The notes under the pieces are model-generated. The model did no database searches and was not told where the DNA came from. It saw only the letters and a list, made by a program, of their open reading frames with translations. Position numbers and translations under genes: made by a program. Below, piece by piece: positions 9,093-9,548 of a DNA stretch of 64,000 bases (positions within the stretch are counted from its first letter, which is position 1; each line of letters begins with the position of its first letter). The stretch lies in sequence record NC_024125.2, one strand, 5' to 3'. The stretch is from Escherichia phage vB_EcoM_112.

Positions 9093-9548
9093 TTATTTTA
9101 AATCGTCTGCCCAATCGAGTTTAAGAGGCTCTTTGTATTCACGGTCAAGTACAACCGGAATTTGTACATCACCGCTAAATGATAAGGGCCCAACATTATA
9201 AGACAATGTTATATGCGGTGTGTAATCATCAAAATCATGTGTAGCACCTAGTGCCCGCGCATACATGTGTCGACAGCGCAGATATTCAGAATCTAACACA
9301 AGTACAAGAGTCGATCCATCTTGTGTTTTCCATACTTCTAAATGTCCAGAAGAAGCTACTTCAAAACTTCCACTCGATGGAACATATGGAACATTTACTC
9401 TCGAATAACATATAGTCGAATGAATTTTTTCTCTAGGAACTGGATTAGGAACACGTAAAGAGCGCTGGAGTTCTTCCAGCGCGTCAAGTGTTAATTCTGA
9501 AAACTTAGCTGCTACATAAAGACCCGTTGAAAAGTCTTTAAATTCCAT
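9093..9548 (-). CDS. 57B: 2H phosphoesterase; T4 gp57B / Acb1 (anti-CBASS) homolog
   Basis: 151 aa; two H-x-T/S motifs (HSTICY, HITLSY) typical of 2H phosphoesterases; position between 57A and the internal-protein locus as in T4. Confidence 0.8.

What the first reader, a model, noticed from the sequence alone, without database searches (positions are those of the whole stretch)
9093..9548. Acb1-type 2H phosphoesterase (gene 57B) bordering the hypervariable internal-protein locus
The 151-aa protein has the two H-x-T/S motifs of a 2H phosphoesterase (HSTICY, HITLSY) and sits at the 57B position, the gene identified in T4 as the anti-CBASS nuclease Acb1. Its 3' end is fused to the repeated promoter/stem-loop element (shared ...DLK-stop). 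A known anti-defence gene directly next to the variable cassettes makes the 7.5-9.6 kb interval look like an anti-defence islet, which supports treating its uncharacterised ORFs as candidates.
Basis: partly seen in the sequence, partly recalled or inferred. Interest (0 to 1): 0.5.

Follow-up and report, generated by a model that had tools for sequence, protein, structure and literature searches.

The report
Known T4 anti-CBASS nuclease Acb1

Summary
Observation confirmed and interpretation supported, but nothing here is new. ORF 9093..9548 (-) encodes 151 aa that are 151/151 identical to T4 gp57B/Acb1 (NP_049750.1). It lacks only T4's extra first Met. It scores 202.7 bits on Pfam PF23474 Acb1 (cut-off 27) and E=4e-62 against the solved Acb1 of Erwinia phage FBB1 (7T26). 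The HxT/HxT catalytic tetrad, the four base-stacking aromatic residues, the adenine-reading Glu and the C-terminal lid are all present. The gene lies between 57A and the internal-protein (IP) cassette array. The repeated element is real. It has three copies of a hairpin plus a T4-early-type promoter, and the copy after acb1 shares its sequence into the last codons (DLK-stop) with the copy after ip5. This is the cassette system described in 1994 for RB15. The two cassettes here are Ip5 (100% identical to RB15 Ip5) and a mosaic Ip6 allele, 79% identical to Bas37_0260, a reported McrBC inhibitor. So the "anti-defence islet" idea already has published support for the ip genes. I found no evidence for trna.2, trna.3 or trna.4. 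Low interest.

The parts
9093..9548 (-). acb1 (gene 57B) CDS including the TAA stop. It encodes a 151-aa 2H phosphoesterase, the anti-CBASS nuclease.
   Evidence: One search lists the ORF. One search gives Pfam Acb1 at 202.7 bits. One search gives 7T26 at E=4e-62. One search gives 151/151 identity to T4 NP_049750.1. One search gives 151/151 identity to Bas37_0262.
9414..9422 (-). First catalytic motif, H43-S-T45 (H44/T46 in T4 numbering).
   Evidence: The catalytic role comes from Hobbs 2022.
9207..9215 (-). Second catalytic motif, H112-I-T114 (H113/T115 in T4 numbering).
   Evidence: with Hobbs 2022.
9096..9119 (-). C-terminal lid, LDWADDLK (T4 residues 145-152). Its last four to five codons lie inside the repeated element.
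   Evidence: for the residues and for the repeat reaching 9108. Lid closure is described. A lid deletion failed to activate Panoptes, which the authors read as loss of catalysis (10.1101/2025.08.21.671373).
9021..9092 (-). Inter-cassette element 1 (acb1 to ip5). It holds a promoter-like site, TTTACA-17-TACTAT with an upstream TG (9079..9051), a 13-bp hairpin (9041-9070), and a Shine-Dalgarno sequence followed by ATG.
   Evidence: for the repeat, for the promoter-like site, for the hairpin (-20.5 kcal/mol, z -5.9), and for the alignment with RB15 and T4 copies.
8763..9020 (-). ip5, internal protein Ip5, 85 aa. It has the capsid-targeting leader MKTFKEF...ITE and ends ...LEDLK.
   Evidence: Searches show 100% identity to RB15 Ip5 (Z35082.1) and to Bas37_0261. 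One search gives PHROG 3499, internal head protein, at E=1e-49.
8685..8762 (-). Inter-cassette element 2 (ip5 to ip6). The promoter-like site is at 8749..8721 and the left arm of the hairpin is degenerate.
8451..8684 (-). ip6-type internal protein, 77 aa, starting at the ATG of MKMYQEFIAE. The allele is mosaic.
   Evidence: One search gives PHROG 8111 at E=7e-50. One search shows no phage record at 99% identity or above, with most at 60-80%. One search gives 79% identity to Bas37_0260. One search shows the divergence concentrated in codons 45-77.
8393..8450 (-). Inter-cassette element 3 (ip6 to trna.4), with a hairpin at 8410-8441.
   Evidence: -19.8 kcal/mol, z -3.8.
8207..8392 (-). trna.4 homologue, a 61-aa predicted membrane protein. 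It is the fixed right-hand border of the cassette array.
   Evidence: for the ORF, for PHROG 1692, for the T4 gene order, and for the RB15 record note.
7822..8205 (-). trna.3 homologue, 127 aa from the ATG. Function unknown.
   Evidence: One search gives PHROG 1411 of unknown function. One search finds no PDB relative. The model is poor (pLDDT 54.6).
7532..7819 (-). trna.2 homologue, 95 aa. Function unknown.
9548..9790 (-). Gene 57A, the tail-fibre chaperone. Its TAA stop overlaps the acb1 ATG as TAATG.
   Evidence: One search gives Pfam GP57 at E=5e-51. The overlap is read from the sequence.

Best explanation
The ORF is acb1 (gene 57B) of a T4-like Tequatrovirus. It encodes a metal-independent 2H phosphoesterase. 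By the published T4 and FBB1 mechanism, the enzyme captures 3'-5'-linked cyclic di- and tri-nucleotides that contain at least one adenosine, such as 3'3'-cGAMP, cUA, cAAA and cAAG. The ligand sits in a U-shaped pocket, stacked on Y/W/F/W residues, with a Glu reading adenine N6. The C-terminal lid closes over it. The HxT/HxT tetrad then drives attack of the 2'-OH on the phosphodiester 3' of adenosine. This gives a 2',3'-cyclic phosphate that is hydrolysed to a 3'-phosphate. The linear product cannot activate CBASS effectors, so abortive infection is prevented. The sequence shows directly that the gene is translationally coupled to 57A through the TAATG overlap. I infer that acb1 and 57A are co-transcribed. 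acb1 forms the constant left border of an array of internal-protein cassettes. Each cassette is preceded by a conserved element made of an early-type promoter, a hairpin and a Shine-Dalgarno sequence, which serves as a recombination site. I infer that the homology reaching into the last acb1 codons lets crossovers there leave the lid's DLK end intact. The enzymology, structure and phage genetics were shown for the identical T4 protein. For this window the function rests on that sequence identity.
For: The protein is 151/151 identical to T4 Acb1 and to the Bas37 orthologue. Pfam Acb1 scores 202.7 bits against a cut-off of 27, and 7T26 matches at E=4e-62 over residues 8-148. Every published functional residue is present: Y11, H43, T45, W73, F106, H112, T114, E140, W146 and the lid LDWADDLK (compared). 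There are 9 nucleotide differences from T4 and none changes the protein. 497 phage records carry a copy at 99% identity or above. Biochemistry, the more than 300-fold defect of T4 delta-acb1 on CBASS hosts, and the onset of activity at about 15 min are in PMC9117128. acb1 became conditionally required on a CBASS host in HIDEN-SEQ. Expression is middle/late. The architecture of the repeated element is shown. The RB15 record from 1994 names the 57B stop and the tRNA.4 start as the flanks of the array. The elements are described as PeSL-like in PMC2839356.
Against: Nothing argues against the identification. Three caveats remain. No assay was done on this phage. The start codon differs from T4's annotation (ATAATG here, ATGATG in T4), so the protein is one residue shorter than annotated T4 Acb1. 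Promoter-like hits in the region as a whole are not enriched over shuffles (12 found against 9.3 +/- 3.0), and no canonical intrinsic terminator was found. The promoter and attenuator roles of the element therefore rest on conservation and on the literature.
Confidence: 0.97

Rival explanations
1. The protein is a LigT-like 2'-5' RNA ligase or a 2',3'-cyclic phosphodiesterase. In this reading it works in T4 RNA or tRNA repair, as the RefSeq label 'RNA ligase' and its place beside the tRNA cluster might suggest.
For: RefSeq records and PHROG 755 name the family 'RNA ligase'. The 2H superfamily includes LigT and cyclic phosphodiesterases. The second step of the Acb1 reaction is hydrolysis of a 2',3'-cyclic phosphate. 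The tRNA cluster lies about 1.6 kb away.
Against: Pfam returns only the Acb1 family at E up to 0.1 and no LigT or 2',5'-ligase family. NCBIfam returns nothing. The identical T4 protein was identified by activity-guided fractionation as the cGAMP-degrading activity, and its deletion abolishes that activity and sensitises the phage to CBASS. No ligase activity has been reported in the papers I read.
Confidence: 0.02
2. The gene is a decaying or inactive copy. Acb1 is a liability on hosts that carry Panoptes, and some relatives have disrupted it.
For: Acb1 triggers Panoptes type I and II. Bas43 carries a nonsense mutation, and Bas35 escapers mutate acb1. Phage BYEP02 carries a 77-nt tandem duplication that truncates acb1.
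Against: The ORF here is intact, all functional residues are present, and it is identical in protein sequence to the active T4 enzyme. All 9 differences from T4 are silent.
Confidence: 0.01
3. On the 'islet' inference: acb1 lies next to the IP array by inherited gene order at the edge of a hyperplastic region, not by functional clustering. In this reading trna.2, trna.3 and trna.4 are not anti-defence genes.
For: The order 57A-57B-ip-trna.4-trna.3-trna.2-tRNAs is fixed in T4, GiZh, Bas37 and RB15. The Bas37 homologues of trna.2, trna.3 and trna.4 show log2 fold changes of -0.13, -0.06 and +0.06 in the first HIDEN-SEQ comparison sheet, while Ip5, Ip6 and Acb1 do shift. No family, solved-structure or literature link to defence was found for them.
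Against: At least two kinds of proven counter-defence genes do sit side by side here: Acb1, and Ip1- or Ip6-type restriction inhibitors. Only a handful of host strains have been screened.
Confidence: 0.4

Closest known systems
Phage T4 Acb1 (gene 57B, NP_049750.1; Hobbs et al. 2022, PMC9117128)
   Same: Identical over all 151 residues. The same neighbours (57A upstream, IP array downstream) and the same downstream promoter/hairpin element.
   Different: T4 is annotated with one extra N-terminal Met (ATGATG against ATAATG, and a 57A stop of TGA against TAA). There are nine silent substitutions. The downstream cassette is ipI in T4 but ip5 plus ip6 here.
Erwinia phage FBB1 Acb1 (PDB 7T26/7T27)
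   Same: Clear homologue over residues 8-148, E=4e-62. The catalytic tetrad and the ligand-stacking residues are conserved.
   Different: It is a homologue rather than an identical protein, with many substitutions along the alignment printed. Its genomic context was not examined.
RB15 IP locus (Z35082.1; Repoila et al. 1994) and Bas37/KarlGJung locus (MZ501089)
   Same: The same borders (57B stop, tRNA.4 start) and the same inter-cassette elements. Ip5 is identical. Bas37 has the same two-cassette layout, ip5 plus ip6.
   Different: RB15 carries four cassettes (ip5, ip9, ip7, ip8). The Ip6 allele here is only 79% identical to Bas37_0260, with the differences in the C-terminal half.
PeSL elements (promoter-early stem-loop) of RB49 and phi1 (Arbiol et al. 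2010, PMC2839356)
   Same: Repeated intergenic units made of a promoter, a stem-loop and a Shine-Dalgarno sequence. They flank small non-essential ORFs and are proposed to mediate cassette shuffling by homologous recombination.
   Different: That paper calls the T-even IP elements analogues, not homologues. They are T4-early-type promoters with AT-rich stems that lack the polyG/polyC tracts. Here the -10 hexamer sits in the hairpin.
LigT-like 2H phosphoesterases and other viral 2H phosphodiesterases (10.1101/2025.08.21.671373)
   Same: The 2H fold with two HxT/S motifs and metal-independent transesterification.
   Different: Acb1 has a C-terminal lid and broad activity on cyclic di- and tri-nucleotides. 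No LigT-type Pfam family matches it.

Membership tests
Acb1 (Pfam PF23474; anti-CBASS 2H phosphoesterase) | Sequence match to the family profile above the curated threshold | tested here: met
   202.7 bits against a cut-off of 27, E=2.6e-60, covering profile positions 1-144 of 144.
Acb1 (Pfam PF23474; anti-CBASS 2H phosphoesterase) | HxT/HxT catalytic tetrad (T4 H44, T46, H113, T115) | tested here: met
   H43-S-T45 and H112-I-T114. The tetrad is defined in PMC9117128.
Acb1 (Pfam PF23474; anti-CBASS 2H phosphoesterase) | Nucleobase-stacking residues Y12, W74, F107 and W147, and the adenine-reading E141 | tested here: met
   Y11, W73, F106, W146 and E140 are present at the equivalent positions (one search compared).
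Acb1 (Pfam PF23474; anti-CBASS 2H phosphoesterase) | C-terminal lid (residues 145-152), reported as required for catalysis | tested here: met
   LDWADDLK is present and identical to T4. The requirement is reported.
Acb1 (Pfam PF23474; anti-CBASS 2H phosphoesterase) | 2H phosphoesterase fold | tested here: met
   Met by sequence homology to a solved structure: 7T26 at E=4e-62 over residues 8-148. No separate model was built because the protein is identical to T4 Acb1.
Acb1 (Pfam PF23474; anti-CBASS 2H phosphoesterase) | [quoted passage not shown] | not testable with these tools
   Shown experimentally for the identical T4 protein (PMC9117128; HIDEN-SEQ). Inferred here by identity.
LigT-like 2'-5' RNA ligase (the RefSeq and PHROG label) | Match to a LigT or 2',5'-RNA-ligase family profile | tested here: not met
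   The Pfam scan at E up to 0.1 returns only Acb1. NCBIfam returns nothing. The PHROG 755 'RNA ligase' name is only an annotation label.
T-even internal-protein cassette array with promoter/stem-loop elements (Repoila 1994) | Array bounded by the 57B stop and the tRNA.4 start, with a conserved element before each ORF | tested here: met
   Three elements lie at 9021-9092, 8685-8762 and 8393-8450. They align with five RB15 copies and two T4 copies.
T-even internal-protein cassette array with promoter/stem-loop elements (Repoila 1994) | Cassette ORFs carry the N-terminal capsid-targeting leader (MKT(Y/F)(Q/K)EF...) ending in an (I/L)-x-E protease site | tested here: met
   Ip5 begins MKTFKEFATKTTITE and Ip6 begins MKMYQEFIAE. 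The PHROG internal head and internal virion protein families match. The leader is described. The protease-site rule comes from my own knowledge of T4 gp21.
T-even internal-protein cassette array with promoter/stem-loop elements (Repoila 1994) | The elements act as promoter, attenuator and recombination sites | not testable with these tools
   Only consensus matches and stable hairpins are seen. Function was shown for the analogous PeSLs, not for these elements.

The most novel reading that the evidence does not exclude
The interval from acb1 to trna.2 is a working counter-defence islet whose untested members matter. Ip5 would be an injected inhibitor of a defence present in wild E. coli such as CFT073. 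The mosaic Ip6 allele here, with a replaced C-terminal half, would retarget an McrBC or type IV restriction inhibitor to a different enzyme variant. The extension of the recombination element into the last lid codons of acb1 would be a selected feature that lets cassettes be swapped without truncating the lid.
Probability: 0.3. Interest if true: 0.35.

Novelty: already known. Interest (0 to 1): 0.08.

Why it matters
It matters little as a discovery. It confirms that this phage carries an intact copy of a well-characterised anti-CBASS nuclease identical to T4's. In practice this predicts resistance to many CBASS systems and sensitivity to Panoptes-type guard systems. The only open threads are the neighbours. 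Ip5 has no known target. The Ip6 allele is an uncommon mosaic of a reported McrBC inhibitor. trna.2, trna.3 and trna.4 remain uncharacterised.

Tried and rejected
- **Solved structures:** searches for trna.3, trna.2, Ip5 and Ip6 gave nothing significant; the best E-values were 0.29, none, 0.76 and 0.039.
- **Family scans:** NCBIfam gave no hit for any of six proteins. Pfam gave nothing above threshold for the neighbours except 57A.
- **trna.3 model:** the single-sequence AlphaFold2 model had pLDDT 54.6 and pTM 0.49, too poor for a fold search, so none was run. I ran no further search on the neighbours because the main verdict does not depend on them.
- **Fourth core match:** GTGATACTATTA at 23663-23674 (+) lies inside the gene 10 coding sequence (ASGDTIKG) with no hairpin, so I dismissed it as chance.
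- **Known RNA families:** Rfam at gathering thresholds finds only the eight tRNAs between 5500 and 10000, and nothing over acb1 or the elements.
- **Terminators:** no intrinsic-terminator-like site was found in 7400-9900.
- **Literature:** Repoila et al. 1994 (PMC395341) is not held. I relied on its GenBank record and on papers that cite it. A search for trna.2, trna.3 and trna.4 returned only irrelevant papers.
- **Is Acb1 itself an injected internal protein?** Its N-terminus MEFKDF loosely resembles MKTFKEF. I rejected this because it has no leader with an (I/L)-x-E site, activity appears only about 15 min into infection, and expression is middle/late.
- **Positive selection on Ip6:** not supported. 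In codons 45-77 dS (0.93) is raised along with dN (0.26), which points to a recombinant allele instead.

Full report
**1. What is there**

The window comes from a T4-like phage of the genus Tequatrovirus. The stretch 7300-10000 matches 915 phage records. The best is Escherichia phage vB_EcoM_G2540-3 at 97.7% over its full length.

On the - strand the gene order is as follows:
- gene 1 (dNMP kinase)
- 57A, at 9548..9790
- the ORF in question, at 9093..9548
- two small internal-protein genes, at 8763..9020 and 8451..8684
- homologues of trna.4 (8207..8392), trna.3 (7822..8205) and trna.2 (7532..7819)
- the tRNA cluster, whose nearest gene ends at 7434

**2. The observation**

The two motifs are H43-S-T45 and H112-I-T114.

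Two H-x-[ST] triplets in 151 residues would not be remarkable by themselves. The significance comes from the profile and pairwise comparisons:
- Pfam PF23474 'Anti-CBASS protein Acb1' scores 202.7 bits against a cut-off of 27 (E=2.6e-60) and covers the whole 144-position model.
- The solved Acb1 of Erwinia phage FBB1 (7T26/7T27) matches at E=4.1e-62 over residues 8-148.
- The protein is 151/151 identical to residues 2-152 of T4 gp57B, NP_049750.1.
- It is equally identical to the orthologue in BASEL phage Bas37.

The one-residue length difference is a start-codon matter. T4 reads GAAGAATGATGGAA, where the 57A stop is TGA and two ATGs follow. This window reads GAAGAATAATGGAA, so only the second ATG exists and it overlaps the 57A stop as TAATG.

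The acb1 sequence differs from T4's at nine nucleotide positions, and none of them changes the protein. Across the phage collection 497 records carry a copy at 99% identity or above.

**3. What it does**

Hobbs et al. 2022 (PMC9117128) found T4 gene 57B by activity-guided fractionation as the enzyme that degrades 3'3'-cGAMP, and named it Acb1. Their findings, read:
[quoted passage not shown] It does not cleave cGG, cA4 or the 2'-5' bond of 3'2'-cGAMP.
- The FBB1 structures show a 2H phosphoesterase fold with a U-shaped pocket.
- Y12, W74, F107 and W147 stack on the bases, and E141 reads adenine N6.
- Residues 145-152 form a lid over the bound ligand.
- T4 delta-acb1 loses the cGAMP-degrading activity and plates more than 300-fold worse on CBASS hosts.

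Every one of these residues is present here at position n-1, and the lid reads LDWADDLK.

Later work agrees:
- acb1 became conditionally required on a CBASS host in a transposon screen of T4.
- In T4 it is expressed in the middle/late period, and activity appears about 15 min into infection.
- Acb1 also degrades 2'3'-c-di-AMP and cA3. It therefore triggers the Panoptes guard systems, and phages escape by mutating acb1.
- A lid deletion (residues 145-152) did not activate Panoptes, which the authors read as loss of catalysis.

The function of this ORF is thus inferred by sequence identity to a protein whose enzymology, structure and genetics have been shown.

**4. The repeated element and the 'DLK-stop'**

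`repeat finder` gives a 76-nt pair (8703-8778 and 9033-9108, 83% identical). It also gives a 39-nt core in three copies at 8412, 8712 and 9042. Read on the coding strand, each copy contains these parts in order:
- the stop codon of the upstream gene;
- GTTTAC(A/T), then a spacer, then T-G-n-TACTAT. This is scored as TTTACA-17-TACTAT with an upstream TG at 9079..9051 and 8749..8721;
- a hairpin whose loop and 3' arm carry the -10 hexamer. The three 68-80-nt intergenic stretches fold at -20.5, -25.9 and -19.8 kcal/mol, with z-scores of -5.9, -5.6 and -3.8;
- a Shine-Dalgarno sequence and AATAAAATG.

Ten copies taken from this window, RB15 and T4 align throughout.

The homology after acb1 and after ip5 extends 13 nt into both ORFs, with 12 of 13 identical. 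This produces ...ADDLK* and ...LEDLK*. The same is true in RB15 but not for T4 ipI.

The last four to five codons of the functionally required lid lie inside the recombination-prone homology. A crossover there would regenerate the same DLK end. That is my inference and it has not been tested.

Two cautions apply. Promoter-like hits in the whole region are not enriched over shuffles (12 found against 9.3 +/- 3.0). No canonical terminator was found.

**5. All of this is already known**

The GenBank record Z35082.1 (RB15; 'Ip5, Ip9, Ip7, Ip8'; Repoila et al. 1994) carries this note: 'Gene 57B finish by TAA at position 7 and tRNA.4 begin at position 1423'. Arbiol et al. 2010 (PMC2839356) describe these IP-locus elements as PeSL-like analogues. 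They are T4-early promoters with AT-rich stem-loops, proposed to drive cassette shuffling.

The two cassettes in this window are:
- **Ip5**, which is 100% identical to RB15 Ip5 and to Bas37_0261.
- **An Ip6-type protein**, which matches PHROG 8111 and is 75-79% identical to GiZh ipVI and to Bas37_0260.

T4 has one cassette (ipI), this window and Bas37 have two, and RB15 has four. In each case they sit next to the acb1 gene, whose protein is identical in T4, Bas37 and this window.

**6. The 'anti-defence islet' inference**

For the ip genes the idea already has published support. Ip1, Ip2 and Ip3 of T4 each inhibit a distinct GmrSD type IV restriction enzyme (PMC12373910). The gene at the Ip6 position of Bas37 (bas37_0260) is reported to inhibit McrBC.

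The supplementary table of that preprint has a first comparison sheet, listed as K-12 versus CFT073. In it, insertions in the Ip5 homologue (log2FC -2.09, q=0) and in acb1 (-1.56, q=0.003) are depleted. The trna.2, trna.3 and trna.4 homologues do not move (-0.13, -0.06, +0.06). Polar effects cannot be excluded in those data.

For trna.2, trna.3 and trna.4 I found nothing:
- no Pfam or NCBIfam family;
- only PHROGs of unknown function;
- no solved relatives for trna.2 and trna.3;
- a poor single-sequence model of trna.3, with pLDDT 54.6.

The inference is therefore reasonable, not original for the ip genes, and unsupported for the trna.x genes.

**7. Rivals**

The RefSeq and PHROG name 'RNA ligase' reflects membership of the 2H superfamily. 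No LigT-type family matches, and the experimental record is for cyclic-oligonucleotide cleavage.

An inactive copy is excluded by the intact ORF and the complete set of functional residues.

**8. Verdict**

Interest is low.

The residual leads are listed under things noticed in passing:
- the mosaic Ip6 allele;
- Ip5, which has no known target;
- a naturally disrupted acb1 in phage BYEP02.

Noticed in passing
window 8451-8684 (-): The Ip6-type allele is an uncommon mosaic. No phage record reaches 99% identity and most are at 60-80%. Against Bas37_0260, the reported McrBC inhibitor, codons 1-44 are close (dS 0.11, dN 0.03). Codons 45-77 are far apart (dS 0.93, dN 0.26), which points to a recombinant C-terminal half rather than simple positive selection.
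   Followed up: partly
L005 (OR757454.1, phage BYEP02), about 738-815 of the locus: acb1 in BYEP02 carries a 77-nt tandem duplication spanning the first HxT motif. It creates a stop (HSTIC*) and splits the gene into two annotated ORFs. This could be natural inactivation, as with the Bas43 nonsense mutant that escapes Panoptes, or an assembly artefact.
   Followed up: partly
window 9093-9548; RefSeq records NC_000866, NC_054903 and others: Many RefSeq and GenBank records and PHROG 755 label 57B/Acb1 as 'RNA ligase'. This is a propagated 2H-superfamily label that conflicts with the experimentally shown function.
   Followed up: yes
window 9545-9551: The start context differs from T4. The window reads ATAATG (57A stop TAA overlapping the only ATG), while T4 reads ATGATG (57A stop TGA, two ATGs). 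Both 151-aa and 152-aa annotations occur among relatives, which suggests the conserved second ATG is the functional start.
   Followed up: partly
Bas37 homologues of window 8763-9020 (ip5) and 9093-9548 (acb1): In the HIDEN-SEQ preprint's Extended Data Table 7, first comparison sheet (listed as K-12 versus CFT073), insertions in the Ip5 homologue (log2FC -2.09, q=0) and in acb1 (-1.56, q=0.003) are depleted. I did not find this discussed in the parts of the main text I read. Ip5 may therefore have a target in CFT073, though polar effects are possible.
   Followed up: partly
window 10146-10153 (-): A T4 late-promoter motif, TATAAATA, lies inside gene 1 about 356 nt upstream of the 57A start. 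It could drive the middle/late expression reported for 57B/acb1. The motif is enriched in the window as a whole, with 24 matches against 10.3 expected.
   Followed up: no
window 5809-5902 (-) and 6156-6821 (-): ARAGORN calls a 94-nt 'tRNA-Lys(ttt)' at 5809-5902, where T4 and GiZh have the small stable RNA rnaC. Rfam does not confirm a tRNA there at gathering score. ARAGORN's 'tRNA-Met(cat)' at 6863-6934 corresponds to the tRNA-Ile(CAU) of the T4 and GiZh annotations. A 221-aa ORF at 6156-6821 sits at the position of T4's homing-endonuclease gene segB, between tRNA-Arg and that tRNA.
   Followed up: no
window 23663-23674 (+): A fourth exact copy of the 12-nt element core GTGATACTATTA lies inside the gene 10 coding sequence, with no hairpin or promoter context. 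I judged it a chance match.
   Followed up: yes
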